Below, piece after piece: positions 24,637 through 41,598 of a DNA stretch of 64,000 bases. Made by a program: the position numbers and the translations under genes. The notes beneath the pieces were generated by a model. That model saw nothing but the letters and a program-made list of their open reading frames with translations, was not told the DNA's origin and ran no database searches. Each line of letters opens with the position of its first letter. Position 1 is the first letter of the stretch. This DNA is from Candidatus Rokuibacteriota bacterium (GTDB taxonomy: Bacteria; Methylomirabilota; Methylomirabilia; Rokubacteriales; DASRDR01), in contig JBIOTN010000067.1 of NCBI GenBank assembly GCA_044866005.1, forward strand, positions 4,899 through 68,898, given 5' to 3'.

Positions 24637-24679
24637 CCGCCCCCGCGGGCGGAGCCGGGCCGGCCGGCGAGGCCACGGG

Positions 24680-26066: not shown

Positions 26067-26085
26067 CTTCCTGGAAGCCGCACCG
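26055..26085 (+). promoter_or_regulatory. MerR/CueR-type promoter: TTGACC, 19-bp spacer containing CCTTCC-N7-GGAAGC
   Basis: Near-identical to the E. coli copA CueR operator (TTGACCTTCCCCTTGCTGGAAGG). Confidence 0.5.
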
Positions 26086-26167
26086 TGGCATCAATACGTC
26101 GGAGGAGAGGGTGGAGTACCGGGAAGAACACGAGACAGTGGAAACCGGGGGGGCGGAGGGATCGGCT

Positions 26168-26520
26168 ATGGCAGTGGCCAGCCGAGAGCTCATCGAGCGC
26201 TGTGTCGAAGAGTGTCTGAATTGCCTCAAGCTCGCGTCACGTTGCGTGGACTCGTGCCTGGCGGACGACCAGGCCAAGGCGATGGCGCGCTGCATCGGCT
26301 CTGCCTGGACTGCGCGGACCTCTGCCAGGCCTGTATCGCCACGCTCGGCCGGAACTCGGAACACGCGCGCGAGCTCTGCCGGGTGTTGGCGGACGTCTGC
26401 GAGGCGTGCGCGACGGAGTGCGAGAAGTTCGGCGACGGCATCATGCGCCAGTGCGCGGAAGCGTGCCGGCAGTGCGCCGAGGCCTGCCGCCAGGTGGCAC
26501 GGGTGCGGGCCGCCGCCTGA
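26168..26520 (+). pseudogene. Four-helix-bundle copper-binding protein (DUF326/Csp-like, Cys-rich) with a -1 frameshift near 26296
   Basis: The N-terminal half is in the 26111 frame and the C-terminal half in the 26056 frame. Restoring one C in tgcatc(c)ggctc gives ARCIRLCLDCADLC. Confidence 0.6.
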
Positions 26521-26617: not shown

Positions 26618-26648
26618 TTGACATTCCAGTTAACTGGAAGGATTACCC
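26618..26648 (+). promoter_or_regulatory. MerR-type promoter: TTGACA, 19-bp spacer with perfect palindrome TTCCAGTTAACTGGAA
   Basis: Upstream of the merR-family gene at 26685. Confidence 0.5.
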
Positions 26649-26684
26649 TGTCTGTGTGAGCGATTCGACCAGGGAGAGCCGAGA

Positions 26685-27122
26685 GTGAGCACGCCCCTGA
26701 AGATCGGCGAGCTGGCCGCCAAGAGCGGGGTCGCGGCGAAGACCATCCGCTTCTATGAAGGGGCGGGCGTGCTTCCGGCCCCCAGCCGGGGGGCGAACGG
26801 CTACCGCCTCTACGGCGCCGACGCCCTGGATCTCCTGCGCTTCGTTCGGCAGGCGCGAGGCCTCGGTCTCACCCTCGGGGAGATCAAGGAGCTGGTCGCG
26901 ATCCGCCGGCGCGGGGAGATCCCCTGCCGGCACGTCTATCGGCTGATCGAGGAGAAGGCCGCGGAGTTCGAGCGCAAGCTGAAGGACCTCGCCGAGCTTC
27001 GGGCGGTCCTTCGCCGGAGCCTCCGGTCGGCGCCGCGGCCGTTCCCCCGCGCCGCCGTCTGTCCCCATATCGAGGCTGGGAGCCAGGGGGCTTTCGCCGT
27101 CTCCCGCCCCCGGAAGGCGTAG
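26685..27122 (+). CDS. MerR-family metal-responsive regulator (CueR-like)
   Basis: HTH KIGELAAKSGVAAKTIRFYE; its stop abuts the start of the ATPase gene. Confidence 0.8.
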   Translation: MSTPLKIGELAAKSGVAAKTIRFYEGAGVLPAPSRGANGYRLYGADALDLLRFVRQARGLGLTLGEIKELVAIRRRGEIPCRHVYRLIEEKAAEFERKLKDLAELRAVLRRSLRSAPRPFPRAAVCPHIEAGSQGAFAVSRPRKA

Positions 27123-29537
27123 ATGGCCCTGGCCAAGCTCCAGCTCAAGATTGGCGGGATGGCGTGCTCCTTCTGTGTCGAGACCATCAAGAAAGGCCTC
27201 GGCCGGATCGATGGGGTGGCCGAGGTCGACGTCAGCCTCGCCCACGAGGAGGCGCTGATCGCCTACGACCCCGCCCGGGTGCCGCCGACGCTCGTCCGCG
27301 ATACGCTCCGCAGCCTCGGCTACACGGTTCGGGACCCCACCAAGGTCCGCACGTTCGAGGACGAAGAGGCCGAGCTGGCCCGTGAGCGGGACCGCCTCAT
27401 CCTGGCGGGGGCGGCTGCATGGTCGGCGTTCATGGCCATGCTGCTCATGTGGGTGGGCCGGCACCACCCCGCGGTCCACTGGTTCATGGCCGCGCTCGGC
27501 GCGGGGATGGTCTTCGGGCCCGGCCTCTACATCCTGAAGATGGCGTGGGCCTCCGCTCGCCGGCGGATCCTCAACCAGCACGTCCTTATGGAGGTCTCGG
27601 CGTTCGGCGGCCTCGCCGGCGGGATCATGGGGCTCGTGAAGCCGGTGTTCCCGAGCTACGAGTTCTTCGGCGTCGCCGTCTTCGTCACGGCCTACCACAT
27701 TCTCGGTGGTTACACCTCGCTGCTCGTTCGGACACGCGCCTCCCAGGCGGTGAAGAAGCTGCTCTCGCTCCAACCGCTGACCGCGCGGGTCGTGCGCGAC
27801 GGCGCGGAGGTCGATGTCCCCATGGCCGAGGTCCGGAAGGGCGACCTCGTGCGGGTGCGGCCGGGCGAGCAGGTGCCAGTCGACGGGACCGTTGTGGAAG
27901 GCGCCTCGGCCGTGAACGAGAGCCTGGTCACTGGCGAGCCCCTGCCGCGCGAGAAGCTACCCGGCCAGGAGGTGATCGGCGGCTCGCTCAACACGTCGGG
28001 GACGCTGCTCGTCCGCGTCACCCGGGTCGGCGAGGAGAGCTTCCTCGAGCAGGTGGCGCGCCACATTCAGGAGGCGCGCGCGCTGAAGCCGGGCATCCTG
28101 CTGCTGCTGGACCGGATCCTGAGGTATTTCGTCCCCGGCGTGCTCGCCGTCGGCCTGGCGGCGTTCGGCTTCTGGTCGCTCGGCGCCTGGACGCTCTGGG
28201 GCGCGCCCGACTGGGACCGTGCCGCGTTCGCGGCGCTGGCGGTGTTCGTGATGGGCTATCCCTGCGCGCTCGGGATGGCCATGCCCCTGGCGATGATCCG
28301 CGGGGGCGGCGAAGCCGCCCGCCAGGGGATCCTCATGCGGAGCGCGGCGTCGTTCCAGGCCTTCAAGGACGTCTCGGTCGTCGTGCTCGACAAGACGGGA
28401 ACCATCACGCATGGCCAGCCTCGCGTCGTGGACATCGTCCCGGCCGGCGGTTGGGAGCCGGACGGCGTACTCCGGCTGGCCGCGGCCGCCGAGCAGCCCT
28501 CCGAGCACCCGCTCGGCCAGGCGGTGGTGAAGGCCGCGGAGGCGCGCGGTCTCCAGGTTCCTCAGGCGGCGGACTTCCAGGCGGTGGCCGGCCACGGTGT
28601 CCGGGCCACGACCGACGGCAAGCGGCTCCTCCTCGGGACGCTCCGCTTTCTCGCCGAAGCCGGCGTCCGGACGGACGGACTTGCTGCCGCCGCCGAGGCC
28701 CAGGAGGCCGGAGCCCGGACCGTGATCGCCCTGGCCGCCGACGGCCACCTCGCCGGCCTCATCGCCCTGGCAGATACCGTCAAGCCGGACGCGGCCGAGG
28801 CAGTCGCCCGCTTCCGCGCGGCCGCGATCGAGCCGGTGATGATCACCGGCGACAACCCGCGGACCGCCCGAGCGGTGGCCGAGCAGGTCGGGATCCGGCA
28901 AGTGCTCGCCCAGGTGCTGCCGCAGGACAAGGCGGCCCGGGTTCGGGAGCTCCAGCGCCAGGGCAAGCGGGTGGCCATGGTCGGGGACGGCATCAACGAC
29001 GCTCCGGCGCTCATGCAGGCCGACGTCGGGCTCGCGATCGGCGCCGGCACTGACATCGCCATCGAGTCGGCCGACGTGGTGCTGGTCGGCGAGCGGCTGA
29101 CCGCGGCGGTCGATGCCTACCACGTCGCGCGCCGGACGTACCGGAAGACGGTCCAGAACCTGACCCTCGCCTTCTCCTTCAACGGGGTCGGCGTCCCGCT
29201 GGCGACTACCGGGCTGTTGGCCCCGGTCTGGGCGATGGCCGCCATGGCGGCGAGCGTGACGGTGGTCCTGCTCAACTCCTTCCTCGGCCGCCTCGTGCCG
29301 CAGTGGCGGAGGCGGCAGCCGGAGGTGCAGCAGTTCGCCTTGACGGTCCCGAGCATCCACTGCGACGGCTGCGTGACGATGATTCGCGAGGAGCTGGTCA
29401 AGCTGCCGATGGTCGTGTCCGTGGACGGCGACCCGGTGTCGAAGCAGGTCGTCGTCACGACGCGCGACGGTCAGGGGCAGCTCGCCGCGGTCGAGGAGGC
29501 GATCGCGCGCCTCGGCCACGTGGTGGGGGAACGCTGA
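27123..29537 (+). CDS. P1B-type heavy-metal ATPase with N-terminal HMA (GMACSFC), atypical YPC TM motif and a C-terminal HMA-like domain (HCDGC)
   Basis: [13 protein letters not shown]; 804 aa. Confidence 0.9.
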   Translation: MALAKLQLKIGGMACSFCVETIKKGLGRIDGVAEVDVSLAHEEALIAYDPARVPPTLVRDTLRSLGYTVRDPTKVRTFEDEEAELARERDRLILAGAAAWSAFMAMLLMWVGRHHPAVHWFMAALGAGMVFGPGLYILKMAWASARRRILNQHVLMEVSAFGGLAGGIMGLVKPVFPSYEFFGVAVFVTAYHILGGYTSLLVRTRASQAVKKLLSLQPLTARVVRDGAEVDVPMAEVRKGDLVRVRPGEQVPVDGTVVEGASAVNESLVTGEPLPREKLPGQEVIGGSLNTSGTLLVRVTRVGEESFLEQVARHIQEARALKPGILLLLDRILRYFVPGVLAVGLAAFGFWSLGAWTLWGAPDWDRAAFAALAVFVMGYPCALGMAMPLAMIRGGGEAARQGILMRSAASFQAFKDVSVVVLDKTGTITHGQPRVVDIVPAGGWEPDGVLRLAAAAEQPSEHPLGQAVVKAAEARGLQVPQAADFQAVAGHGVRATTDGKRLLLGTLRFLAEAGVRTDGLAAAAEAQEAGARTVIALAADGHLAGLIALADTVKPDAAEAVARFRAAAIEPVMITGDNPRTARAVAEQVGIRQVLAQVLPQDKAARVRELQRQGKRVAMVGDGINDAPALMQADVGLAIGAGTDIAIESADVVLVGERLTAAVDAYHVARRTYRKTVQNLTLAFSFNGVGVPLATTGLLAPVWAMAAMAASVTVVLLNSFLGRLVPQWRRRQPEVQQFALTVPSIHCDGCVTMIREELVKLPMVVSVDGDPVSKQVVVTTRDGQGQLAAVEEAIARLGHVVGER

Positions 29538-29538
29538 G

Positions 29539-30045
29539 ATGCGGAAATGGGTATGGGTCGCGGTCCTCGCCGCGGCGCTCGTGACCGGGTACGCCGTCGG
29601 GTACTTCTTCAACCCCGCCGGCGTCCCGCCGGTCAAGGGCTACCTGGACGGGCGCGAGGTCAAGTTCCTCCACACCGAGGCCTCGGACCCGAAGGTGGCC
29701 GCGCTCCTGACGGAGATGATGCGCTCGCCCGTCCTGGTCGTCCCGGCGCTCGCCCGGGCCCCCGAGGCCATGGTGGCGCCCGTCTACGTGTTCACGAACG
29801 GCGTGAGGAAGGGGGAGGGGCCGTTCAGGTATCAGTCCGACGTCTTCGAGCGGCCGCCGGGCCAGGATGGCTACAGCCCGCTGCGCGCGGTCCACCTCGT
29901 GAAGTGGAAGAACGAGGGCGCCGCCCGTGAGCTCCGATCGGCCGGGGAAGTGAAAGAGGCGGAGGCGAAGGGCGAGCTGACGATCGAGCGGCCGGGCGTC
30001 GTCGTCAACATGCCGTTCCTCACGTGGCCCGGCGGACGGCGGTGA
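29539..30045 (+). CDS. Membrane-anchored hypothetical protein
   Basis: ATG overlaps the ATPase stop; N-terminal TM segment; no recognised domain. Confidence 0.5.
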   Translation: MRKWVWVAVLAAALVTGYAVGYFFNPAGVPPVKGYLDGREVKFLHTEASDPKVAALLTEMMRSPVLVVPALARAPEAMVAPVYVFTNGVRKGEGPFRYQSDVFERPPGQDGYSPLRAVHLVKWKNEGAARELRSAGEVKEAEAKGELTIERPGVVVNMPFLTWPGGRR

Positions 30046-30085
30046 CGATCAGGGGCGTGAACCGAAAGGAGCTTCACGGAGAGAG

Positions 30086-30292
30086 ATGACCACGGTGCGG
30101 TTGAGGGTCCCTACGATCAAGTGCGAAGGATGCGTCGAGAGGATCAGGAGCACGCTCGTCACGAGGGCGGGAGTCCACCGGGTCGAAGGCGACCCGGAGC
30201 GGAAGGAGCTCAGCGTGACGTTCAACCCTGAGCAGTTGAGCGATCAAGACATCCGAGCCGCGGTGTGGAATGCCGGGTTCATGGTCGGCTGA
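30086..30292 (+). CDS. Small HMA-like metallochaperone with CEGC motif
   Basis: LRVPTIKCEGCVERI; resembles the ATPase C-terminal domain. Confidence 0.6.
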   Translation: MTTVRLRVPTIKCEGCVERIRSTLVTRAGVHRVEGDPERKELSVTFNPEQLSDQDIRAAVWNAGFMVG

Positions 30293-30346
30293 GGCGCTGT
30301 CACAGCTCATGACGGGCTCAACCGGACGCACGGAGACGGCCGTGGA

Positions 30347-31546
30347 ATGCCGATGGGCGCGATCCAGCGGGGCGTGAGGAATCCGTTCCGAAACGTGGCC
30401 AGGACCCTGGTCGCCGTCTGCCTCCTGGCCCTGGTCCTGGGACTCCTCGCGCTCATGGTCCAGGCGGCGCGGCTCAGCCGCGAGCAGCTCGGGAGGCTGG
30501 AGGCCCGGGTCCGGACGCTGATCGAGCTGCGGGAGGCGGGCGCGTTCGGCACCGGCGGCTTTGGCGGCGACAAGCCGGTGGGTGAGGCGGACTTCTCCGT
30601 CGACACGCTGGACAAGGTCAGGCAGATCCCCCACGCCCGCCACATCGTCCGGATCGAGGAGTACATCTACACCCCTCACATCGATCCGAGCCGGGGCAAC
30701 GCCTACGCCATGATCATCGGCCTCCCTCCCGGAGCGGCGATGCGCGCGATCGGGGAGGTCGATTACGAAAACGCCCGGCTCATCGCGGGGCGGCCGCTCG
30801 GGCCGGACGACACCGAGGCCCCGGTGGCCGTGGTCGGCAAGCTCTACGCGAAGGAGCGGCTGGCTCTGCCGACTCCGACCGAGGCCGCCCTGGCCGGCCG
30901 GGCGCTCGTCCTGAACGGCCGGCCGTTCCGGATCGCCGGCGTCTACACCACGGACAACGACTTCGGCGACAACCACGTCTTCGTCCCGCTCGAGGCGTTC
31001 CGGGCGACGTTTCGTCCCGGGAGAAAGCTCGGGAAGATCTTCGTCTCCGTAGACTCGGTGGCGAACGTCGATGCCGTCGTCCAGGACCTCAAGCGCATCC
31101 CGGAGACGGACGTGGTCACGACGCCCGAGGCCGTCTCGACCGCGCGCAGGACGCTCAGCGCGATGGCGGCGACGAGCGGGGTGGGCTCCATCGTGCTCTT
31201 CGCGGTCGGCGGTGTCCTGGTCGCCTTCGTCATGGTGCTCGTGACCAAGGAGCGGGTCCGAGAGATCGGGACCCTGAAGGCGATCGGCGCCGGCGACAGC
31301 GAGGTCCTCGGCCAGTTCCTGGCCGAGGTCTTTGCCCTCACGCTGATGGGAGCTCTCCTGGCCGTCCCGCTCGCCTACCTGGGCACGCCCGTGCTCCGCC
31401 ACGCCCTCGGCGTGACCCTCGAGGTCGACCGGACGGTCTTTCTCCTCATCCTGGCGGGCGGCTTGCTGTTCGGGGCGCTGGGCAGCCTGTACCCGATCGT
31501 GAAGGGCCTCCGACTGAGCCCGGTCGAGGCCACGACGAAGGCCTGA
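30347..31546 (+). CDS. FtsX-family ABC transporter permease (LolC/E- or MacB-like)
   Basis: N-terminal TM segment, periplasmic domain, 3 C-terminal TM segments, TKERVREIGTLKAIGA motif. Confidence 0.8.
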   Translation: MPMGAIQRGVRNPFRNVARTLVAVCLLALVLGLLALMVQAARLSREQLGRLEARVRTLIELREAGAFGTGGFGGDKPVGEADFSVDTLDKVRQIPHARHIVRIEEYIYTPHIDPSRGNAYAMIIGLPPGAAMRAIGEVDYENARLIAGRPLGPDDTEAPVAVVGKLYAKERLALPTPTEAALAGRALVLNGRPFRIAGVYTTDNDFGDNHVFVPLEAFRATFRPGRKLGKIFVSVDSVANVDAVVQDLKRIPETDVVTTPEAVSTARRTLSAMAATSGVGSIVLFAVGGVLVAFVMVLVTKERVREIGTLKAIGAGDSEVLGQFLAEVFALTLMGALLAVPLAYLGTPVLRHALGVTLEVDRTVFLLILAGGLLFGALGSLYPIVKGLRLSPVEATTKA

Positions 31547-31557
31547 GGATACCCGGC

Positions 31558-32815
31558 ATGCGCATGGTCGTCCTCGGCGTCCGCAACCTCGGCCGGAACA
31601 AGCTCCGGCTGGCCCTCGGCGCCGGGCTGATCGGCGTGCCCGTCTTCCTGCTGCTCGTGTTCCAGGCGATGGGGGCGGCCGTGCGGGCGCAGACGGAGCT
31701 GCTCAAGCAGGGCGTCGACACGCACCTCCAGCTCCGGGCGAAAGGCTCGATGGGCCACGTGAACATGGTGGGCAGCTCCCGGCTGCTGCCCGGAGAGGCC
31801 CTCCAAAGGGCGCGCGGGATCGAGCGCGTGGCGAAGGTCGAGCCGTACCTGCTCGCCATGAATCCGACCGAGGGCCACAACTTCGCGATGCACGTCGGCC
31901 TGCAGGTCGGGGACGCCAAGCGGCTGGAGTCCCATGGGGAAGCCGGGAATCCCCGGATCGTTGCCGGGCGCGACCTGACGGCGGCCGACGCCGGCCGGGA
32001 TGTCGCCCTGATCGGCCAGGGCTATGCCCGGTGGGCGGGCCTCACACCGGACCGGCTCCCCGCGCCGTTCGTGGTCGACCCCGCCCGGTCGAACCCCGTG
32101 ATCTTCCGCCTCGACCGGCCACGCCACGAGCTGACGGTCGTGGGCATCTACGCGAGCGGCTATGTCTTCGGGGATCTGCAGCTCTTCATGCCGATCGAGA
32201 CCTTCCGCCGCATCTACGGCGCGGACCAGGGCTTCTCCTGGCTGTTCGTCACGGTCGAGTCGGTCGACCACGTGGCGGCCGTGGAACGGCGACTCCGCGA
32301 GGCGCTGGGGGGCGTGGCCGACATCATCGCGCCCACGGCAGCGGCCGCCTTCGCCAGCACGGCCACGCACGCCGTGGAGCGGGTGACTGGCGCGGTGACG
32401 CTGTTCGCGGCCGCGCTGATGGTCGTGGTCGTCTTCTTCGTCATGCTGGTGATCGTCCGCGAGCGCGCTCGCGAGATCGGGACGCTGAAAGCGATCGGCG
32501 CCTCCGACGGGGACCTCGTCCTCGAGTTCCTGTCCGAGGCCGTCGCGCTCACCGCGACGGGCGGTCTCCTCGGGCTCCTGCTCTTTCAGGCGCTCGGCGG
32601 GGTCCTGGCTGGGCGGCTGTTCGCCCTCGGTGTCGCCCCGTTCCTGCCGGCCCCGTACAGGGAGACGCTCTTCGACGCGCTGGGCGGCGTCGGCGCCGCC
32701 ATGACCCCCGCCACCGTCGGCCTCGTCGGGCTGATCGCCCTCGTCGTCGCGTCGGTGGGCAGCGGCTACGGCGTCTGGCAGGTCACGCGGCTCTCCCCCG
32801 TAGAGGCGATGCGCC

Positions 32816-32823
<8 letters not shown>
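31558..32823 (+). CDS. FtsX-family ABC transporter permease (paralogue)
   Basis: Same architecture; VRERAREIGTLKAIGA. Confidence 0.8.
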
Positions 32824-33493
<670 letters not shown>

Positions 33494-33510
33494 CGATTGG
33501 GGGGCTTCCC

Positions 33511-34194
33511 GTGCTGAGAGGCCGAGCCTGCAGGCTCCTGCTCATCGCGGCCGTGGTCCTCGCGGGCCCGGCGCCCGGCGGGGGCCAGCCCATGCCGGCG
33601 TCCACCGCGCCCACGGAGGCGGTCATTTCCGTTCGGGCCGCGGCCGGCGGGACCCTGCCGCAAGTGACCCGCGACCGGATCCGCGCCGTGCCGAACATCA
33701 CGGCCATCGAGCCGTTCCTCGAAGGCAAGACGGCCGACGGGGTGAGGGTGATCGGGGTGGAACCCGCGCCGGCCCTCCACCTCCGGTCGGGCACCGGCAT
33801 ACGGCCCATCGGCATCGTCCAGGGCCGCGGCATCGAGGCCGGCGACGCGCCGGAGGCGATCGTCGTCGGGAGGACGTTTTCGCAGAAGAACAAGACGGCG
33901 CTGGGGCTGAGCATCCCGGCCATGCTGACGAAGGATCATTTTCCCCCGCTCCTCGTCGGCGGCCAGGGCTTCGCGATCATCGGGATCTACACGACCGGCG
34001 ACGCCGCGACCGACGACCAGGTGCTCGTGCTGCTGCCGACCGCCCAGAAGCTCCTCAACCAACCCGGCCGGCTGAGCGGGCTCTATGTCACGGTCACGCC
34101 GGCGTCGCCCCGCACGGTCGAAGACGTCGCCGGCAGGCTGCGCCGCGCGCTCGGGGGCTCCGCCGAGGTGGTGGCGCTGCCGGGCCCGCGCTGA
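33511..34194 (+). CDS. Secreted protein resembling a stand-alone MacB/FtsX periplasmic core domain
   Basis: GTG start; signal peptide; FAIIGIYTTGDAATDDQVLV parallels the periplasmic loops of the two permeases. Confidence 0.55.
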   Translation: MLRGRACRLLLIAAVVLAGPAPGGGQPMPASTAPTEAVISVRAAAGGTLPQVTRDRIRAVPNITAIEPFLEGKTADGVRVIGVEPAPALHLRSGTGIRPIGIVQGRGIEAGDAPEAIVVGRTFSQKNKTALGLSIPAMLTKDHFPPLLVGGQGFAIIGIYTTGDAATDDQVLVLLPTAQKLLNQPGRLSGLYVTVTPASPRTVEDVAGRLRRALGGSAEVVALPGPR

Positions 34195-34219
34195 GCGACG
34201 TCATGCACGGGAGCACGTC

Positions 34220-35083
34220 GTGAGGGACTCTCGAGGCGCGGCTCGGGAGGGACGCGTCGTCGAGGACGCGGCCGCGACGAAACCGGGCGGCACCCTCTCG
34301 CCCCTTCGCGGTCTGTGGGTGCCGAGCCTCGCCCTTCTCGGGGTCGCGCTCGTCGGCTGGACGGCCTGGACCTACGGCGCCTTGAGGGGCCTCGAGTCCG
34401 CTGGCTTCGATGCGCCGTGGGCGCTCGCGGGCCTCGGATTCCTCGCCGGGGTCGGCGCCTTCTTCGCCCCGTGCGCGTTCGCGCTGTTCCCAGCCTATGT
34501 CTCGTACTACCTGAGCCTATCCGGCGAAGGCCGCACCGTCGGCCGGTCGCTCGGCCTGGGGCTCGCCTGCGCCGCGGGCAGTGCGCTGTTCTTCGGGCTG
34601 GTGGGGGGCGTGATTGCGCTGGCCGGCGGGGCGATCTCCACCTACTTGATCGCCGCGAAGCCCTTCGTGGCCCTCGGGGTTGTCGTGCTCGGTGCCGTGC
34701 AGCTTGCTGACGTCCGGATGCCGTCCCTGGCCCTGCCTTTTCCCCTGGACACCGGAGGCGCTCGCTCGGCGGGGGTCGCCGTGTTCCTCTACGGCTTCGG
34801 GTACGCGCTCGCGTCCACCGGCTGCACCTTGCCGATCTACGTCTCGATCACCGTCCTGCCGCTCACGACCGGCTTCTCCGGGTCGGCTCTCTTGACCTTT
34901 ACGGCCTTCGCCGTCGCGATGGCGAGCTTGATGCTCGTCACCACCGTCTTGGTGGGGCTCGCCAAGCGGAGGATCCTGGCCGCGCTTCAAGGGTCCACGG
35001 TCTGGATCAAGCGCGCTAGCGGCATCGTGCTCATCGCCGCGGGCCTCTACCTCGGCTACTACTACGTGAGAGCCGGAATGTGA
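34220..35083 (+). CDS. CcdA/DsbD-like transmembrane thiol-disulfide transporter (two conserved Cys). The start is uncertain.
   Basis: Polytopic; Cys in FFAPCAF and ASTGCTLP helices. Confidence 0.65.
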   Translation: MRDSRGAAREGRVVEDAAATKPGGTLSPLRGLWVPSLALLGVALVGWTAWTYGALRGLESAGFDAPWALAGLGFLAGVGAFFAPCAFALFPAYVSYYLSLSGEGRTVGRSLGLGLACAAGSALFFGLVGGVIALAGGAISTYLIAAKPFVALGVVVLGAVQLADVRMPSLALPFPLDTGGARSAGVAVFLYGFGYALASTGCTLPIYVSITVLPLTTGFSGSALLTFTAFAVAMASLMLVTTVLVGLAKRRILAALQGSTVWIKRASGIVLIAAGLYLGYYYVRAGM

Positions 35084-35105
35084 GCCGCCTCACAGGGAGA
35101 CGACG

Positions 35106-35410
35106 CATGCGACGTGTCGCCGGACTCATGGCGGTGCTGCTTCTGATGGCGTGGCTCACCGTGCCTGTCACCGCCTTCGCGGCGACCAAGGTCGCCGTGA
35201 TCGAGGTCAAGGGGATGGTCTGTCAGGCCTGACCCTTCTCGGTCAAGACAGCCTTGGAGAGGCTGCCGGGGGTGAGCCGAGCTGACGTGAGCCTCGAGAA
35301 GGCGGAGGCTCGGGTCGAGTTCGACGACGCGAAGATCTCGGCCGACAAGCTGGCCGCGGCCGTCGACCGGCTGGGCTTCCGCGCTCGGGTGCTCGCCGTC
35401 GAGCCAGGGG
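35106..35410 (+). CDS. MerP/CopZ-like periplasmic HMA-domain protein with GMVCQA-[TGA]-P (CxxU). The signal peptide is in a different frame (+1 indel near 35160). Candidate selenoprotein or pseudogene.
   Basis: ATG 35106 with AGGGAGA RBS encodes MRRVAGLMAVLLLMAWLT. The HMA domain is in the next frame from 35161. TGA at 35230-35232; hairpin 16 nt downstream. Confidence 0.5.
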
Positions 35411-35416
35411 GGTAGC

Positions 35417-35683
35417 GTGCCGGTCGAGATCGAGCTCTTGACCGCGCCCGGCTGAGGGAAATGCGAGGCCGCCAAGGCGTTGGCGCTCGACGTGATCGAC
35501 TCGGTCCGAGCGGAGTGCCATGATGTGTGGCTCACGGTCGTCGACGTCACGGAGCAGCCTGCCGTGGCGGTGAAGTACCGCGTGACGGCGACGCCCGCCA
35601 TCGCGATCGACGGAGTCCTCGCCTTCCGCGGCGTCCCCCCAGCCCACGTCCTCCGCGACCGAATCTTGCAGGCGAAGGCGTGA
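35417..35683 (+). CDS. Small thioredoxin-fold protein with G-[TGA]-GKC (UxxC); candidate selenoprotein
   Basis: GTG start after AGGGGGG; the C-terminal TATPAIAIDG..FRGVPP motif matches small Trx/Grx-like proteins. TGA at 35453-35455; hairpin 14 nt downstream. Confidence 0.55.
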
Positions 35684-35737
35684 CTCGGTCTCGAAGAGCG
35701 GAGCCACAGCCCCCCTTTGGCTTGGCCACGATTTCAC

Positions 35738-35768
35738 TTGACTCTCCTCCCAGGAGGAGGGTTTAGCC
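35738..35768 (+). promoter_or_regulatory. MerR-type promoter: TTGACT, 19-bp spacer with dyad CTCCTCC-CA-GGAGGAG
   Basis: 20 nt upstream of the merR-family ATG. Confidence 0.45.
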
Positions 35769-35787
35769 TCGGGTCAGGACGGGACAC

Positions 35788-36249
35788 ATGAGCGAGTTGA
35801 AGATCGGGGCGCTGGCCCGGCTCGCGGGCTGCACGGTCAAGGCCATTCGATTCTACGAGGCGAACGGCCTCCTTTTCGCCGCTGCGCGCAGCCCGGCCCG
35901 GTACCGGCTCTATACCGAGCGCGACCTCAGACAACTCCAATTCATCCAGCGTGCGAAGCTGATCGGGCTCCCGCTCACCAAGATCAAGAGTCTGGTCGTT
36001 CACGTGAGCGAGGAGCAGTGCGGGTGTCCCACGATCCGGCCTCAGCTGGAGCAGCTGATCCGCGAGCAGCTCAAGGAAGTGGGGGACAAGCTCGACCAGC
36101 TGGCGCTCCTCAAGCACGAGCTGGAGGGCTTGCTGGCAAAGATGCGTGGCGCCGTGCGACCACTTCCCCAAGAGCTCTGCGTGTGCGGCGCACAGCATCA
36201 CTCGGGGTTTGTCGGACTCGTGAAGCTCAAGCAAGGAGGACGGCGATGA
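35788..36249 (+). CDS. MerR-family heavy-metal-responsive regulator (Cys-rich effector domain)
   Basis: HTH IGALARLAGCTVKAIRFYE; C-terminal CGC and CVC. Confidence 0.8.
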   Translation: MSELKIGALARLAGCTVKAIRFYEANGLLFAAARSPARYRLYTERDLRQLQFIQRAKLIGLPLTKIKSLVVHVSEEQCGCPTIRPQLEQLIREQLKEVGDKLDQLALLKHELEGLLAKMRGAVRPLPQELCVCGAQHHSGFVGLVKLKQGGRR

Positions 36250-36581
36250 ACAAGAGTCGGAAGTCACCGGGCCTGCCGGTCCTGCCCGCCCCGCGCACCG
36301 ACTGCGGGGACGGCAGCTGCGGCTGTGGCTGCGGGATTCCGCTGGCCACGCCCAAGCCCACAAAGACCGGCAAGCAACGTACACGCCCGACCGGGGAAGG
36401 AGGAGCGAACATGGAGCCGGTGAGAATGTCGCTGTGCCATGAAGGTGCGGAGTGTCCGGAGGTGGTCGTCGAGCGAGACGAGGTTCGCATCGGCGAAGCC
36501 GGCAACCTGGCCGTGCTCAAGAAGGACGAGTGGAACATCCTCGTCGAGCTGATCCGATCGGGACAGCTGACGCAGCTGTAG
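36246..36581 (+). CDS. Cys-rich hypothetical protein (CGDGSCGCGCG N-terminus)
   Basis: ATGA overlap with the merR stop; 111 aa. Confidence 0.5.
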   Translation: MNKSRKSPGLPVLPAPRTDCGDGSCGCGCGIPLATPKPTKTGKQRTRPTGEGGANMEPVRMSLCHEGAECPEVVVERDEVRIGEAGNLAVLKKDEWNILVELIRSGQLTQL

Positions 36582-36603
36582 AGTCGCGCGACGGAGAGCT
36601 CTC

Positions 36604-36747
36604 ATGGCACTGAAGAAGGGAGAGCGCTACCGCTGCCCGGATCCGAAGTGCGGCTGCGAGATCGAGGTCACCAAGGGCGCCGCGCCGGGCCAGGGCGGCG
36701 ATCTGAACCCGCGTTGCTGCTGCGGCAAGGAGATGCAGCGCGTGTGA
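36604..36747 (+). CDS. Small (47 aa) Cys-rich metallothionein-like peptide
   Basis: CPDPKCGCEIE...NPRCCCGKEM; the ATG follows the previous gene. Confidence 0.35.
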   Translation: MALKKGERYRCPDPKCGCEIEVTKGAAPGQGGDLNPRCCCGKEMQRV

Positions 36748-36807
36748 CGGGACGGGGTGCGGGACAATGGCCCCGCCCCCCGGTGCTCCGGGCAGAGGGA
36801 CGCAGCA

Positions 36808-38250
36808 TCAGCGTCGTACGCGCCTCGTAGGCAGCAGGGCCCGACTCAGGTGGCGATTCCAGCTCCCGTAGCGCTCTCGGATCGCGCCCCGGGGGAGCGC
36901 CAGGAGGATCACGGCGGCGCCGATGATCATGTCGTTCGACGTCGCACCGACATTCGAGCCGGCGAGCACCCAGGGCGCGACGACGAGCCAGGCCCCGACA
37001 ACGACGTTGACGAGGCGCAAGGGGCGGGCCACTTCCGCCGTCACGATGATGGCCAAAGTCAGGATCAACGCCCCTCCGATGTGGTCGCTGTCCGCAGCCG
37101 GGCCCTCGGCCTGGACCACGGCGGGCGCCGCCATCAGCCAGACGCCAAGCGCCGCGCTGACCAGGAGAGTCCAGGGAGCGCCGATCCCCCACAGCATGGC
37201 CGGGACGATCCGGGAGATCGGTGACCCGTAGCGCGGGGTTCGGAGATCCTTGCCCTCGCGCTCGGTCGTGCCGCCCACCCAGAACGTCCACCAGAAGGGC
37301 TTCCCCTCCCGGACACTCTGGGCGAGGAACTGTCCCATCGCGACGACCTCGTCGAGCGTCAGGGGAATCATCAACAACATGAGGAAGGCCGCCGCCAGAC
37401 AGAGGGTGCACCACTGACCGACGATGACGGGCTGGAGAATGACCAGCACGATGTGGGTGATGCCGAGCGGGACGACGAGGATCCCGAAGAACGTCACCAT
37501 CCATGGCATCGTGCGCCACCGAGTCTGGCCGCCCATGTAGCCCATGAGGGCTTCGAACGTATAGGCCGCCGCGCCCAGCCCCGCGTCCGAGATCGGCCAG
37601 GCACGCGAGACCTCCGAGTGGAGGACGCGCATGGTGCCTTCACCGAAGAACGGTTCCCAGGCGACGTCGACATAGCCGAGCTGGACGGCGGCCAGATAGC
37701 GGGAGATGAACCAGCCGGCGAAGGCGAGCGCGATGATGGGCGTCCGCTGGAGCCAGGAAGACGGATTGTACGTCCATCCGGGCGGGATCTCCGGGCCGGG
37801 CTTCATCATGACCAGATGATGGGCCGCGCCCGGCATCATGGGCACGAGCACCGAGAAGGTGATTGCCAGCGCCCCGACCAGGGTATCGTTGACGTAGGCG
37901 ACCGGGCGTGGCGCCCAGAAGAGGAGCGGCGCAAACTGCAGCCACACGCCGACGAGACACACCGCCCAGCGCCCCGCGAAATCCAGGCGCGGCAAGAGCG
38001 ACAGCGCGCCGAAGCACGCGAGCAGCGCCCCGCTGATCGTGTCGCTCCACGCGGTCGCCGCGCTTTCGTAGCCGAACGTGGCGGGACTACCGATCAGCCA
38101 TACGCCCAGCACCGCGTTCGTCACGTTGGTCCAGAGCCATTTCGCGCGCTGCTGCCGGATCATCTCCAGATGGTCTCGAGCGTGTTCCTGCACCCCGTCC
38201 CGCGGGAGTGGCGCGGCAGGGGCGGCGTGCTCGGGACCTCGCCGGCTCAT
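36808..38250 (-). CDS. Vitamin K epoxide reductase (VKOR)-family membrane protein
   Basis: Polytopic; GQWCTLCLAAAF CxxC in a TM helix. Confidence 0.65.
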   Translation of the reverse strand: MSRRGPEHAAPAAPLPRDGVQEHARDHLEMIRQQRAKWLWTNVTNAVLGVWLIGSPATFGYESAATAWSDTISGALLACFGALSLLPRLDFAGRWAVCLVGVWLQFAPLLFWAPRPVAYVNDTLVGALAITFSVLVPMMPGAAHHLVMMKPGPEIPPGWTYNPSSWLQRTPIIALAFAGWFISRYLAAVQLGYVDVAWEPFFGEGTMRVLHSEVSRAWPISDAGLGAAAYTFEALMGYMGGQTRWRTMPWMVTFFGILVVPLGITHIVLVILQPVIVGQWCTLCLAAAFLMLLMIPLTLDEVVAMGQFLAQSVREGKPFWWTFWVGGTTEREGKDLRTPRYGSPISRIVPAMLWGIGAPWTLLVSAALGVWLMAAPAVVQAEGPAADSDHIGGALILTLAIIVTAEVARPLRLVNVVVGAWLVVAPWVLAGSNVGATSNDMIIGAAVILLALPRGAIRERYGSWNRHLSRALLPTRRVRR

Positions 38251-40271: not shown

Positions 40272-40820
40272 GTGCGCGTGCAGCGGATTGCAGGCGGTCG
40301 GCCACACGTGGGGCTCGTCCTCGCGTTGCTCGTCTCCGTCTCGCCCGCGACGGTGTCGGATGCGACCGACGTCCGGCCGGCCGTCGGGCATCGCGCGCCC
40401 GATTTCGTCCTCCGCGATCCGGACGGCCAGCCGGTCGAGCTCTCCCGGATCCTCGGCGAGCACGCCGTCCTCCTCAACTTCTGGGCGACCTGGTGTCCGC
40501 CGTGCCGCGAGGAGATGCCGACGATGGAGCGGGCGTACCGCGACTACAAGGCGCGCGGGCTCACGGTCCTGGCCGTGAGCATCGACGCCGGCAGTGAAGC
40601 ATCCGTCAGGGCGAAAGTGAAGGCGTTCATGAAGGAGCTGAAGCTCACGTTCCCGGCCGTGCTGGACGTCGAGGGCGAGGTCGTGCGCCGCTACCGGCTG
40701 CGCGGCCTCCCCACGACGTTCCTGATCGACCGGACGGGCATGATTCGATCGGAGGAGCTCGGGTTCCGGGACTGGAGCGATGCCGCGGCGCGAAGGAAGC
40801 TGGACGCCCTGCTGAAATGA
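40272..40820 (+). CDS. TlpA/ResA-family periplasmic thiol:disulfide oxidoreductase (Cys form, WCPPC)
   Basis: GTG start; signal/anchor; [13 protein letters not shown]. Confidence 0.8.
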   Translation: [182 protein letters not shown]

Positions 40821-40830
40821 GTCCCCGCCC

Positions 40831-41598
40831 ATGGCGCTGATTCACGAGCTGATGCGGAGCTGGTACCTGGTGCTGAGCCGGTTGAGCGCCGCGCTCACCG
40901 TCCCGGTGAGCGACCTCGCCGACCGGATCGAGCTCCCGCTCCTCACGGTGCTGCTCTTCGGCGTGGTCGGCGCGATGGCGCCCTGTCAGCTCACGACGAA
41001 CCTCTCGGCGATGGCCTACGTCGGGAGCCGCGCCGGCGAGGGCCGGCCCTGGCGCGAGACGCTCGCCTACCTCGCGGGGAAGGCCCTCGTCTACACGCTG
41101 GTCGGCGCCGCCGTCTTCGCGGTCGGCCGGGAGCTCCAGGCGGCGGCCATTCCCGTGGCCATGGCGGCGCGAAAGGCGCTCGGGCCCCTCATGATCCTCA
41201 TCGGCCTGGGGCTGCTGGGGCTCTACCGGCTGCGCGGCTCGCTCGGCGGTCGGCTCTCCGCCTGGCTGCGGACCCGGGCACCGCAGCGCGGCGCGTGGGG
41301 CGCCTTCCTGCTCGGCGTGGCCTTTGCCGGGAGCTTCTGTCCCACGCTCTTCTGGCTCTTCTTCGGCCTGACGATCCCGCTGGCCCTGCGGAGCGCGGCC
41401 GGGTGGAGCTTCCCGGCGGTCTTCGCGGCCGGCACCACGCTGCCCCTCGTCGCGTTCGCCGGGCTGCTCGCGCTGGGGCGCGAGGCCGGCGGGCTGGTCG
41501 AGCGCCTCCAGCGCTCCCACGGGCTCGTGCACCGGATGGCGGGGGTGGTGATCATCCTGGCGGGGATCAACGACACGCTGACGTACTGGGCGCTCTGA
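40831..41598 (+). CDS. CcdA/DsbD-family transmembrane electron transporter
   Basis: Two conserved Cys (MAPCQL, SFCPT). Confidence 0.8.
   Translation: MALIHELMRSWYLVLSRLSAALTVPVSDLADRIELPLLTVLLFGVVGAMAPCQLTTNLSAMAYVGSRAGEGRPWRETLAYLAGKALVYTLVGAAVFAVGRELQAAAIPVAMAARKALGPLMILIGLGLLGLYRLRGSLGGRLSAWLRTRAPQRGAWGAFLLGVAFAGSFCPTLFWLFFGLTIPLALRSAAGWSFPAVFAAGTTLPLVAFAGLLALGREAGGLVERLQRSHGLVHRMAGVVIILAGINDTLTYWAL

What the first reader, a model, noticed from the sequence alone, without database searches (positions are those of the whole stretch)
34220..35683. Putative operon CcdA-like, HMA(CxxU), Trx(UxxC): a transmembrane reductant relay feeding selenoprotein partners
The gene order places a DsbD/CcdA-type membrane electron conduit immediately upstream of two tiny periplasmic or soluble selenoprotein candidates.

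By analogy with CcdA-ResA and DsbD-DsbC/CcmG, this suggests a dedicated pathway that keeps a Sec-containing metal chaperone and Sec-thioredoxin reduced. A Sec/Cys HMA site would also have altered Cu(I)/Hg(II) affinity.

This looks like a functional module rather than isolated genes. It is embedded between a LolCDE-like exporter and a second MerR regulon.
Basis: inference. Interest (0 to 1): 0.7.

Follow-up and report, generated by a model that had tools for sequence, protein, structure and literature searches.

The report
Selenoprotein redox relay for metal chaperone
Three adjacent genes in a soil Rokubacteria-like genome encode a membrane electron conduit (CcdA-like) and two unannotated selenocysteine proteins, a cytoplasmic mini-thioredoxin and a periplasmic metal-binding protein. 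The set recurs in about 100 related loci inside metal-resistance operons, so it is a real, mostly undescribed variant of a known kind of redox relay.

Summary
Window 34220-35683 holds three tightly packed same-strand genes: a CcdA/DsbD-type membrane protein, a signal-peptide HMA/MerP-like protein with in-frame TGA in GMVCQA-U, and an 88-aa thioredoxin-fold protein with TGA in APG-U-GKC.

Both TGAs are genuine Sec codons by comparative evidence. In 100 related loci the HMA motif is CxxU (71), UxxC (22), UxxU (4) or CxxC (2). A hairpin built from rare codons follows the TGA in all 98 TGA-bearing homologs. It is absent from the two Cys homologs. The Trx TGA is followed by a 9-bp hairpin with compensatory changes.

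The CcdA-like gene lies directly upstream of the HMA gene in 81 of 86 testable loci. The Sec-Trx is usually present too, but often upstream of CcdA.

The Trx has no signal peptide, so it is most likely the cytoplasmic electron donor, not a recipient. The likely path is Trx(UxxC) to CcdA-like to periplasmic HMA(CxxU).

The context is a MerR-controlled copper/heavy-metal island. HMA selenoproteins and CcdA relays are each known. I found no description of this Sec-at-both-ends module with an HMA acceptor. Public annotations show only truncated fragments. Function is inferred, not shown.

The parts
34220..35083 (+). CcdA/DsbD-family membrane protein. It has an extra N-terminal TM helix plus a six-TM core and two intramembrane catalytic Cys: C85 in 'APCAF' and C202 in 'STGCTLP'.
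   Evidence: Pfam DsbD_TM scores 28.2 against a cut-off of 27.1. C85 and C202 are invariant in 20 homologs. The A1 profile aligns end to end with T. thermophilus CcdA 5VKV, with both Cys matched, E=0.023. Distant homologs are fused to TlpA/Redoxin domains.
35107..35415 (+). Periplasmic HMA (MerP/CopZ-like) selenoprotein, 102 aa, with a Sec-type signal peptide (cleavage AFA/A) and metal site GMVC-QA-U.
   Evidence: Translation. Pfam HMA scores 48.8. Best NCBIfam hit is NF041115, 'metal-binding (seleno)protein', at 85.6 bits against a cut-off of 95. 100 homologous loci were found.
35230..35232 (+). Sec-UGA codon of the HMA gene, at the second Cys position of the CxxC motif.
   Evidence: Across 100 loci the motif is CxxU 71, UxxC 22, UxxU 4, CxxC 2.
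35249..35265 (+). SECIS-like hairpin CAGCCU-UGGAG-AGGCUG, starting 16 nt after the UGA.
   Evidence: It is built from rare codons: ACA/GCA at 1.5-2%, TTG at 3.6% of Leu, AGG at 3.6% of Arg. These are kept in 98/98 TGA-bearing homologs. The two Cys homologs encode the same residues with common codons and have no hairpin. There is one compensatory C-G to U-A change.
35417..35683 (+). Cytoplasmic 88-aa thioredoxin-fold selenoprotein (Thioredoxin_3 type) with active site APG-U-GKC, no signal peptide and cis-Pro 'TP'.
   Evidence: Translation. Pfam Thioredoxin_3 scores 41.7. Homologs with UxxC were found in about 36 loci.
35453..35455 (+). Sec-UGA codon of the Trx-like gene, at the N-terminal nucleophile position of CxxC.
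35467..35488 (+). SECIS-like 9-bp hairpin, starting 11 nt after the UGA, with a G-rich loop.
   Evidence: 91.7% of cells are paired and 4 pairs carry compensatory changes, while slid controls give 20-55% paired. RNAalifold finds the same helix. The pattern holds in 26 unique sequences.
26618..26649 (+). MerR-type promoter that could drive a long operon reaching the trio. It reads TTGACA, then a 20-nt spacer holding the perfect dyad TTCCAGTT/AACTGGAA, then TACCCT. It precedes merR1 and a run of same-strand genes up to the trio.
   Evidence: All genes from 26685 to 35683 lie on the + strand with short gaps. Co-transcription is inferred.
26685..34194 (+). Upstream same-strand genes: merR1, a P1B ATPase (27123-29537), DUF7482, a CopZ-like CxxC HMA (30086-30292), two FtsX/MacB permeases, an ABC ATPase, and an unknown 227-aa periplasmic protein.
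   Evidence: The same neighbours recur in related loci.
35738..35768 (+). Second MerR-type promoter, TTGACT-19 nt-TTAGCC, with the dyad ACTCTCCTCC/GGAGGAGGGT. It starts the next unit (merR2 plus Cys-rich ORFs) and so marks the 3' boundary of the module's unit.

Best explanation
The block encodes a three-component thiol/selenol relay across the cytoplasmic membrane that serves a periplasmic metallochaperone.

**Proposed path.**
- The cytoplasmic mini-thioredoxin (active site UxxC) is the dedicated reductant donor.
- In some relatives it is probably recharged by an adjacent NAD(P)H-dependent FAD disulfide reductase.
- It reduces the two intramembrane cysteines of the CcdA-like conduit.
- The conduit then reduces the CxxU metal site of the secreted HMA protein. 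This happens either directly or through a TlpA-like UxxC protein that is encoded next door in some loci and elsewhere in this window.

**Purpose.** The reduced selenolate/thiolate pair can then bind a soft metal in an oxidising periplasm, as part of a MerR-regulated efflux and resistance operon. Context points to Cu(I); Hg(II), Ag(I) and Cd(II) are not excluded.

**Shown.**
- The genes exist and both small genes carry Sec codons with SECIS-like hairpins.
- The module is conserved across about 100 loci.
- CcdA hallmarks are present.
- The Trx has no signal peptide and the HMA has one.
- The genomic context is metal handling.

**Inferred.** The direction of electron flow, HMA as the CcdA client, and the metal's identity.
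For: **Sec coding.**
- The TGA falls at Cys-equivalent positions, with conserved sequence on both sides.
- The HMA hairpin is made of rare codons. It is present in 98/98 TGA forms and absent in the 2 Cys forms, and it shows one compensatory pair.
- The Trx hairpin has 4 covarying pairs and 91.7% pairing, against 20-55% in slid controls.

**Linkage.**
- CcdA-like lies directly upstream of HMA in 81/86 loci that have at least 400 nt of upstream sequence.
- The distance from the CcdA stop to the HMA metal motif is 107-148 nt in 90 loci.
- The Sec-Trx is adjacent in at least 37 loci.
- L100 keeps UxxC in the Trx even though its HMA is CxxC.

**Conduit identity.**
- Both catalytic Cys are invariant and align with those of CcdA 5VKV.
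- K/R counts in the loops, by my reading of the sequence, fit a cytoplasmic N-terminus and a periplasmic start of TM1.
- Distant homologs are fused to TlpA/Redoxin domains.
- The archaeal relative L025 encodes TlpA-like, CcdA-like, a cytoplasmic Grx-like CPYC protein and a thioredoxin-reductase-like protein in one row.

**Compartments.**
- HMA homologs all carry signal peptides.
- The Trx begins 12 residues before the Sec, and in several loci a stop codon lies just upstream.

**Extra relay parts in relatives.**
- A TlpA-like UxxC protein follows HMA in 14 loci.
- An FAD disulfide reductase follows HMA in L015, L017 and L018.

**Metal context.**
- In the window: two MerR genes, two P1B ATPases, a CopZ-like protein, a multicopper oxidase, two SCO1-like proteins, DUF411 and a YtkA-like protein.
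- In L013 and L018 the trio sits inside the merR-ATPase unit.

**Precedents (my knowledge plus PMC10907172).** CcdA-TlpA-ScoI, and ScsB-ScsC with CueP.
Against: - No electron transfer or metal binding was measured.
- All known CcdA/DsbD clients are thioredoxin-fold or DsbD-alpha domains. An HMA (ferredoxin-like) client has no precedent.
- The 10 domain fusions I inspected pair CcdA with TlpA-like domains, never with HMA.
- A selenenylsulfide may be harder to reduce than a disulfide, so thermodynamics could oppose direct reduction by a Cys-Cys conduit.
- Sec occupies either or both HMA positions. That fits a ligand role, but says nothing about redox cycling.
- The window holds no Sec machinery (no tRNA; no SelA/B/D among the ORFs scanned). 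Sec decoding by this organism therefore rests on comparative evidence alone.
- Single-sequence folding energies of both hairpins match shuffled controls in this 71% GC sequence.
- The loci are not independent samples, and the peptide patterns used for the scan may favour Sec forms.
Confidence: 0.6

Rival explanations
1. A Mer-like inward metal relay. The periplasmic Sec-HMA acts like MerP and captures Hg(II) or another soft metal. It hands the metal to the intramembrane Cys pair of the CcdA-like protein, which acts like MerT. The metal then passes to the cytoplasmic UxxC protein and, in some loci, to a MerA-like flavoenzyme. The chain would move metal inward by ligand exchange rather than moving electrons outward.
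For: - MerP is the second-best NCBIfam hit for the HMA, at 71.8 bits.
- The layout is periplasmic binder, then membrane Cys pair, then cytoplasmic dithiol/selenol, which mirrors MerP-MerT-NmerA.
- The FAD disulfide reductase directly after HMA in L015/L017/L018 scores 278 bits on the MerA model.
- MerR1 has Cys at the position that marks divalent-metal sensors (my reading, from knowledge of CueR/MerR structures).
- MerT and MerP selenoproteins exist (PMC2398784; NF045683).
Against: - The MerP and MerA models score below their cut-offs (71.8 < 92.55; 278 < 454).
- The flavoenzyme lacks the NmerA domain and the C-terminal Cys pair of MerA.
- No MerT or MerA homolog was found among the window ORFs scanned.
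- Neighbouring genes are exporters and copper-handling proteins, not a mer operon.
- This CcdA clade is fused or adjacent to TlpA-type oxidoreductases and to a Grx plus thioredoxin-reductase pair in relatives. That argues for electron transfer.
Confidence: 0.12
2. Co-located but not a direct relay. The CcdA-like conduit supplies reductant to TlpA-like, Sco or other envelope proteins under metal stress. The Sec-HMA is simply a periplasmic chaperone that works with the P1B ATPase or MacB-type exporter. The Sec-Trx is a general cytoplasmic redox protein. The genes share regulation but do not exchange electrons with each other.
For: - Known CcdA clients are Trx-fold proteins.
- TlpA-like genes, one of them with UxxC, and SCO1 genes lie elsewhere in the window.
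- TlpA-like UxxC genes follow HMA in 14 loci.
- The fusions found are CcdA-TlpA, not CcdA-HMA.
- The third gene varies among loci.
Against: - The CcdA-HMA adjacency is nearly invariant (81/86) with very short gaps. That is tighter than for any other neighbour.
- Many loci have no TlpA-like gene nearby.
- The window has a separate TlpA + DsbD_2 pair at 40272-41598 that could serve general needs.
Confidence: 0.2
3. The in-frame TGAs are ordinary stops. On this reading the small ORFs are split or decayed genes, or assembly errors, and there are no selenoproteins.
For: - Public gene calls split the genes into fragments of 41, 47 and 52-67 aa.
- No Sec machinery was seen in the window.
- No Rfam SECIS hit was found.
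Against: - The TGA recurs at the same motif position in about 98 HMA and about 36 Trx homologs of 45-80% identity. Coding conservation continues downstream and hairpins are conserved.
- Identical sequence appears in several independent assemblies.
Confidence: 0.01

Closest known systems
CcdA (or DsbD/ScsB) to TlpA/ResA/CcmG reductant pathways, including TlpA reduction of the copper chaperone ScoI (Bradyrhizobium; my knowledge)
   Same: - A cytoplasmic thioredoxin feeds a DsbD-family conduit with two intramembrane Cys, which reduces an extracytoplasmic CxxC protein.
- The purpose can be to keep a copper chaperone's cysteines reduced.
- The same-clade archaeal operon L025 and the TlpA-CcdA fusions show that the classical arrangement occurs in this clade.
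   Different: - Here the donor is a dedicated operon-encoded selenoprotein (UxxC) rather than housekeeping TrxA.
- The conserved neighbour on the outside is an HMA-fold selenoprotein rather than a Trx-fold protein.
- The conduit has an extra N-terminal TM helix.
- It only marginally passes the Pfam threshold.
Salmonella Scs system (ScsB/ScsC/ScsD) with CueP (PMC10907172)
   Same: - It is a copper-induced, DsbD-like membrane reductase system.
- It is linked to a periplasmic Cu(I)-binding protein and to envelope copper tolerance.
   Different: - ScsB is a large DsbD-type protein with periplasmic domains.
- Its partners are Trx-fold, with no selenocysteine.
- CueP is not an HMA protein and is encoded elsewhere.
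MerP-MerT-MerA mercury uptake and reduction
   Same: - The periplasmic protein is a signal-peptide HMA with a paired soft-ligand site.
- A membrane protein with paired Cys and a cytoplasmic paired-ligand acceptor follow.
- The regulator is MerR-family.
   Different: - There is no MerT or MerA.
- The membrane protein belongs to the DsbD family.
- The MerP and MerA models score below their cut-offs.
Known HMA-type selenoproteins: GOS 'MerP' and 'putative mercuric transport protein', the Olavius symbiont UxxU 'putative mercuric reductase' = NCBIfam NF041115, and the MerT/CopZ fusion selenoprotein NF045683 (PMC2398784, PMC9312934, PMC13188914)
   Same: - They have an HMA fold with Sec in the CxxC metal site.
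- UxxU forms also occur in this clade (L019, L093, L096, L097).
   Different: - Window and relatives score 72-86 bits on NF041115, below its cut-off of 95. They are a sister group that NCBI models do not capture.
- The dominant motif is CxxU.
- They carry signal peptides.
- They show an obligatory CcdA-like neighbour, which the reviews I could read do not report.
Multi-selenoprotein operons SAO and Tso (Haft and co-workers; described in PMC13188914 and bioRxiv 10.1101/2022.07.06.499078)
   Same: - Several selenoproteins, including a thioredoxin-like UxxC protein, are co-encoded with transport proteins and thought to handle soft metals.
- TsoB is a rhodanese/DsbD fusion-like selenoprotein.
   Different: - The protein families, lineages (Firmicutes and others) and architecture differ.
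- Here the DsbD-family member itself has no Sec.
- I could not read the 2025 Tso paper, so I cannot exclude that it mentions a related neighbourhood.

Membership tests
Bacterial selenoprotein gene (Sec-UGA plus bSECIS) | In-frame UGA aligned with Cys in homologs, with coding conservation on both sides | tested here: met
   - HMA: the TGA aligns to Cys of the Pfam HMA motif and to the CxxC homologs L100 and L105.
- Trx: the TGA sits at the first Cys of CxxC.
-.
Bacterial selenoprotein gene (Sec-UGA plus bSECIS) | Stem-loop shortly downstream of the UGA, conserved beyond what the coding sequence requires | tested here: met
   - HMA: a rare-codon hairpin occurs in 98/98 TGA forms and is absent in the 2 Cys forms.
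- Trx: 4 covarying pairs, and slid controls are low.
- Single-sequence energy is not significant.
- Rfam gave no hit.
Bacterial selenoprotein gene (Sec-UGA plus bSECIS) | Genome encodes selA, selB, selD and tRNA-Sec | not testable with these tools
   - The window has no tRNA.
- There were no Sel protein hits among the scanned ORFs.
- The rest of the genome was not available.
CcdA/DsbD family (PF02683) | Profile match above the curated threshold | tested here: met
   The score is 28.2 against a cut-off of 27.1 and covers only the first half, so the pass is marginal. The A1 profile against PDB finds CcdA 5VKV full length at E=0.023.
CcdA/DsbD family (PF02683) | Two conserved redox Cys, one in TM1 and one in TM4, with nearby Pro | tested here: met
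   C85 (APCAFALFP) and C202 (GCTLP) are invariant in 20 homologs and align with the two Cys of 5VKV.
CcdA/DsbD family (PF02683) | Six-TM inverted-repeat fold | tested here: inconclusive
   - The AF2 model has pLDDT 62 and seven long helices.
CcdA/DsbD family (PF02683) | Transfers electrons from cytoplasmic thioredoxin to an extracytoplasmic thiol-disulfide oxidoreductase | not testable with these tools
   Only contextual support exists: TlpA fusions and the L025 operon TlpA-CcdA-Grx-TrxR.
HMA domain (PF00403) | Profile match and GMxCxxC metal site | tested here: met
   48.8 bits against a cut-off of 24.8. The motif is GMVCQA-U.
NCBIfam NF041115 UxxU metal-binding (seleno)protein | Score at or above the curated cut-off (95 bits) | tested here: not met
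   The window scores 85.6. Relatives with UxxU, UxxC and CxxU score 75.1, 77.2 and 72.2. It is the best hit but below the cut-off.
MerP (TIGR02052) | Score at or above the curated cut-off (92.55 bits) and a mer operon context (MerT, MerA) | tested here: not met
   - The score is 71.8 bits.
- No MerT or MerA was found in the window.
- The flavoenzyme in relatives scores below the MerA cut-off and lacks NmerA and the C-terminal CC.
Thioredoxin fold, Thioredoxin_3 (PF13192) | Profile match, CxxC-type active site at the start of helix 1, cis-Pro | tested here: met
   - 41.7 bits against a cut-off of 24.8.
- The active site is U-G-K-C.
- 'ATPAI' supplies the Thr-Pro.
-.
- The equivalog models MJ0307 (46.5 < 92.75) and MTH895/ArsE (31.9 < 62) are not met.

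The most novel reading that the evidence does not exclude
A DsbD/CcdA-family protein has been recruited as the membrane step of a selenocysteine-based ligand-exchange wire. This wire would carry a soft metal (Hg, Cu, Ag or Au) across the membrane between a periplasmic Sec-HMA and a cytoplasmic Sec-thioredoxin-fold acceptor. It would be a MerT-independent, Sec-dependent metal translocation system rather than an electron relay.
Probability: 0.12. Interest if true: 0.85.

Novelty: new variant of a known kind. Interest (0 to 1): 0.6.

Why it matters
**If the relay reading is right.**
- This would be the first DsbD-family pathway with selenocysteine at both its cytoplasmic entry and its periplasmic exit.
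- It would also be the first pathway whose conserved client is a metal-binding HMA protein rather than a thioredoxin-fold enzyme.

**A family that is almost always Sec.** 98 of 100 loci found carry Sec; the scan patterns may favour Sec forms. This is unusual among selenoproteins and gives a handle on why Sec is retained. Possible reasons are soft-metal affinity or resistance to over-oxidation in the periplasm.

**Annotation consequence.** Both selenoproteins are split into fragments labelled 'CopZ' or left unnamed across Rokubacteria/Methylomirabilota assemblies. Selenium use and metal-resistance capacity of this abundant soil phylum are therefore under-counted.

**Testability.** The module is small enough for direct biochemical tests with U-to-C variants.

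Tried and rejected
- **Rfam.** An E-value-mode search of 33000-37500 gave only spurious miRNA/psaA hits and no SECIS family.
- **Single-sequence folding.** Folding downstream of each TGA gave z-scores near 0. Thermodynamics alone cannot support a SECIS in 71% GC DNA, so I relied on codon-usage and covariation evidence.
- **Promoter and terminator scan.** It found nothing between the genes.
- **Structure.**
  - The AF2 model of the CcdA-like protein was low confidence (pLDDT 62).
- **MerA test.** I tested whether the flavoenzyme next to HMA in L015/17/18 is MerA. It is not: it scores below the cut-off, and has no NmerA and no C-terminal Cys pair.
- **Family membership.** I tested membership in NF041115, MerP, and the MJ0307 and MTH895 thioredoxin equivalogs. 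All score below their cut-offs.
- **Close Cys homologs.** A search of the 5.8-billion-protein set for full-length Cys homologs of the HMA found only truncated fragments.
- **Metal specificity.**
  - MerR1 and MerR2 have non-canonical Cys patterns.
  - The P1B ATPase has YPC instead of CPC.
- **Literature.**
  - I found no paper on a CcdA + Sec-HMA + Sec-Trx module.
  - Haft and Tolstoy 2025 (mSystems) is not held, so prior description there cannot be excluded.
- **Notebook correction.** The correct ones are 35249-35265.
Full report
**1. What is in the sequence**

The window is 71% GC. Its closest relatives are MAGs of Candidatus Rokuibacteriota/Methylomirabilota. At the reported coordinates there are three same-strand genes.
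- A 287-aa membrane protein at 34220-35083.
- A 102-aa protein at 35107-35415 with in-frame TGA at 35230-35232.
- An 88-aa protein at 35417-35683 with in-frame TGA at 35453-35455.

The gaps between them are 23 nt and 1 nt, and each start has a purine-rich Shine-Dalgarno-like stretch upstream. With Cys substituted for the stop, Pfam assigns DsbD_TM (28.2 bits, cut-off 27.1), HMA (48.8) and Thioredoxin_3 (41.7). No promoter-like site and no intergenic terminator-like site was found.

**2. Are the TGAs selenocysteine codons?**

TGA is a normal stop in this block, since it ends both the CcdA-like and the Trx-like genes. A recoded genetic code is therefore excluded.

I collected 23 loci from one-genome-per-species contigs, using the CcdA-like protein as query. 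I collected 80 more from JGI metagenomes using an HMA alignment.

*HMA gene.*
- In 100 loci with a readable motif, the HMA site is CxxU in 71, UxxC in 22, UxxU in 4 and CxxC in 2.
- The downstream residues T/A-A-L-E-R-L are encoded in every TGA-bearing homolog by ACA/GCA-GCC-TTG-GAR-AGG-CTG.
- This forms the hairpin CAGCCU-UGGAR-AGGCUG, at window 35249-35265, 16 nt after the UGA.
- In this genome ACA/GCA, TTG and AGG make up only 1.5-2%, 3.6% and 3.6% of their codon families.
- The two Cys-containing homologs encode the same residues with CTG/CTC and CGC/CGG and have no hairpin.
- Two loci carry a compensatory C-G to U-A change (GTC...AGA).
- This internal control ties the hairpin to the UGA.

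*Trx gene.*
- A 9-bp hairpin at 35467-35488 starts 11 nt after the UGA.
- It is 91.7% paired across 12 homologs, with four pairs showing changes on both sides.
- Sliding the partner columns drops pairing to 20-55%, and RNAalifold predicts the same helix.
- The pattern holds in 26 unique sequences.

*Caveats.* Single-sequence folding energies are not better than shuffles. Rfam has no hit. The window contains no tRNA-Sec or Sel genes (and the Pfam scans). I judge Sec coding very likely on comparative grounds.

**3. Is the trio a module?**

- The CcdA-like gene lies immediately upstream of the HMA gene in 81 of the 86 loci that have at least 400 nt upstream.
- One exception, L080, is an IS insertion that left the CcdA C-terminal tail in place.
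- The distance from the CcdA stop to the HMA metal motif is 107-148 nt in 90 loci. Since that span includes the signal peptide, the intergenic gap is always small.
- The Sec-Trx (APG-U-xxC) was found in at least 37 loci. It usually lies upstream of CcdA, sometimes with a YtkA-like periplasmic protein in between. It lies downstream of HMA in the window, L003, L026, L029 and L100.
- L100 has a CxxC HMA but still a UxxC Trx.
- L017 has CGA in place of TGA within a locus that looks decayed.
- Additional neighbours vary.
  - A TlpA/ResA-like periplasmic protein with W-U-PDC directly follows HMA in 14 loci.
  - A Grx/NrdH-like protein with PG-U-xxC occurs in 13 loci.
  - A class-I FAD disulfide reductase occurs in L015, L017 and L018.
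- The module is often embedded in a merR / P1B-ATPase / DUF7482 unit or follows a MacB/LolCDE-type ABC exporter, as it does in the window.

**4. What each part is**

*The membrane protein.*
- It has the two hallmark cysteines of CcdA/DsbD: C85 in APCAFALFP and C202 in GCTLP, both invariant in 20 homologs.
- A profile of the family aligns over the whole six-TM core of Thermus thermophilus CcdA (5VKV), with both Cys matched. The E-value is weak at 0.023.
- It has an extra N-terminal helix.
- The distribution of Lys/Arg in the loops, by my reading of the sequence, puts the N-terminus in the cytoplasm and the start of TM1 in the periplasm. This is the canonical orientation.
- An exhaustive profile search found 2154 relatives. 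Among the 10 longer relatives I inspected, 7 are fusions of this domain with TlpA/Redoxin domains.
- The Woesearchaeota relative L025 encodes, in a row, a TlpA-like lipoprotein, the CcdA-like protein, a cytoplasmic CPYC glutaredoxin-like protein and a thioredoxin-reductase-like protein.
- These two observations place the clade firmly among thiol-disulfide electron conduits. They also show that a dedicated cytoplasmic donor next to the conduit is a recurring design.

*The HMA protein.*
- It has a typical Sec-type signal peptide in all homologs, so it is periplasmic.
- Its best NCBIfam hit is NF041115, 'metal-binding (seleno)protein' (UxxU), at 85.6 bits against a cut-off of 95. MerP is next, also below its cut-off.

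*The Trx-like protein.* It starts 12 residues before the Sec, often just after an upstream stop codon. It is therefore cytoplasmic.

**5. Most likely mechanism**

Electrons would flow from NAD(P)H, via an FAD disulfide reductase where one is encoded, to the Sec-thioredoxin. They would pass through the Cys pair of the CcdA-like conduit to the periplasmic CxxU site of the HMA protein. That last step could be direct or go through a TlpA-like UxxC protein. The result would be a selenolate/thiolate pair kept ready to bind a soft metal.

The surrounding 20-49 kb is a copper/heavy-metal island. It contains:
- two MerR-family regulators with classic long-spacer dyad promoters
- two P1B ATPases
- a CopZ-like protein
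- a multicopper oxidase
- two SCO1-like proteins
- DUF411 and a YtkA-like protein
- a second TlpA + DsbD_2 pair
- a further TlpA-like selenoprotein candidate

Copper is therefore the leading candidate. However, MerR1 carries Cys at the position that distinguishes divalent-metal sensors (my knowledge of CueR/MerR structures). The nearby ATPase has YPC instead of CPC. The metal thus remains open.

Everything about electron flow and metal binding is inference. I put this explanation at about 0.6.

**6. Rivals**

*A Mer-like inward metal relay (0.12).* It fits the compartment layout and the MerP/MerA-like similarities. It is weakened by sub-threshold scores, a flavoenzyme without MerA's extra cysteines or NmerA domain, exporter-rich context, and the clade's links to TlpA, Grx and thioredoxin reductase.

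*Shared regulation without direct exchange (0.2).* Known CcdA clients are all Trx-fold, so this cannot be dismissed. The near-invariant, tightly spaced CcdA-HMA pair argues against it.

*Split or decayed genes (0.01).* The comparative data exclude this reading.

**7. Comparison with what is known**

- HMA-type selenoproteins have been listed since 2007-2008: MerP, a MerT-like transporter, and a UxxU 'putative mercuric reductase' (PMC2398784, PMC9312934, PMC13188914). Thioredoxin-like UxxC selenoproteins are common.
- CcdA/DsbD/ScsB relays are well established, including ones tied to copper chaperones (PMC10907172; my knowledge of TlpA-ScoI).
- The combination appears to be new.
  - A dedicated Sec donor and a Sec-HMA neighbour flank a CcdA-like conduit.
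  - The set is conserved across a phylum.
  - Curated selenoprotein models do not capture it.
  - It appears in databases only as fragments of 41-67 aa labelled CopZ, HMA-domain protein, or unnamed.
- I found no paper describing it. One relevant paper (Haft and Tolstoy 2025) could not be read.

**8. Verdict**

- Novelty: a new variant of a known kind.
- Interest: 0.6. This is a clear, testable, phylum-wide selenoprotein module with an unusual client, but built from familiar parts and so far supported only by sequence analysis.

Noticed in passing
window 45339-45914 (+), TGA at 45597-45599: Another selenoprotein candidate: a TlpA/ResA-like periplasmic oxidoreductase with active site FRTD-U-PNC and a hairpin right after the TGA. 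It lies between a multicopper oxidase (43721-45265) and SCO1/SenC (45911-46651).
   Followed up: partly
window 40272-41598 (+): A separate all-Cys reductant pair: TlpA-like (WATWCPPC, 40272-40820) followed by a DsbD_2-family conduit (APCQ / FCPT, 40831-41598). The genome therefore has a second, conventional conduit close by.
   Followed up: partly
window 27123-29537 (+): - A P1B-type ATPase with HMA domains at both ends.
- Its TM6 motif is GYPCALG (YPC instead of the usual CPC).
- FN and MAASV replace the Cu-type YN and MxxSS residues.
- Metal specificity is unclear.
- Orthologs (76-80% identity) accompany the module in L013, L014, L018 and L022.
   Followed up: partly
window 26618-26649 and 35738-35768: Two MerR-type promoters with 19-20 nt spacers that contain dyads (TTCCAGTT/AACTGGAA and ACTCTCCTCC/GGAGGAGGGT). 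They lie in front of merR1 and merR2. Both regulators have non-canonical Cys patterns.
   Followed up: partly
window 36246-36581 and 36604-36747 (+): Two small Cys-rich ORFs lie downstream of merR2: a 111-aa ORF with CGDGSCGCGCG and a 47-aa ORF with CPDPKCGC...CCC. Neither has a family hit. They may be metal-binding peptides.
   Followed up: no
window 26056-26520 (+), two frames: A Cys-rich gene that looks like a four-helix-bundle copper-binding protein. It is split between two reading frames around 26290, which points to a frameshift or an assembly error.
   Followed up: no
window 36808-38250 (-): A VKOR domain flanked by SPW repeat domains (480 aa). This is a disulfide-forming enzyme encoded right beside the reductive module, on the opposite strand.
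   Followed up: no
window 20567-25950: - A second P1B ATPase with YHS and HMBD domains (20567-23200, minus strand).
- An SCO1-like protein (24680-25252).
- A RHH/PemK toxin-antitoxin pair (25313-25950).
- All lie inside the metal island.
   Followed up: no
L004 4593-4823; L007 5277-5504 and 11 other loci: A Grx/NrdH-like 75-aa gene with in-frame TGA (SQPG-U-xxC) lies downstream of the Sec-HMA. Its best NCBIfam hits are YruB/NrdH and Uxx-star families, below their cut-offs.
   Followed up: partly
L010 2250-2804, L012 5094-5648 and 12 other loci: A TlpA/ResA-like gene with in-frame TGA (FWATW-U-PDC) and a membrane anchor directly follows the UxxC form of the HMA gene.
   Followed up: partly
L005, L016, L021, L022, L023, L100: In these loci the Sec-HMA is fused to a second HMA-like domain that lacks the cysteines (about 172 aa in total).
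   Followed up: no
L025 87-2612: A Woesearchaeota operon with TlpA-like lipoprotein, CcdA-like, CPYC glutaredoxin-like and thioredoxin-reductase-like genes. It is a complete all-Cys relay in one row.
   Followed up: yes
L080 209-1518: An IS (DDE transposase) insertion has removed most of the CcdA-like gene. Only its C-terminal tail (...LAYYYVAAGM) remains in front of an intact Sec-HMA gene.
   Followed up: partly
L006 about 1770-2170, L007 about 3560-3930 and others: A small YtkA-like (FixH-like) periplasmic protein with a Met-rich motif (RMADGMSV) is inserted between the Sec-Trx and CcdA-like genes in several loci.
   Followed up: partly
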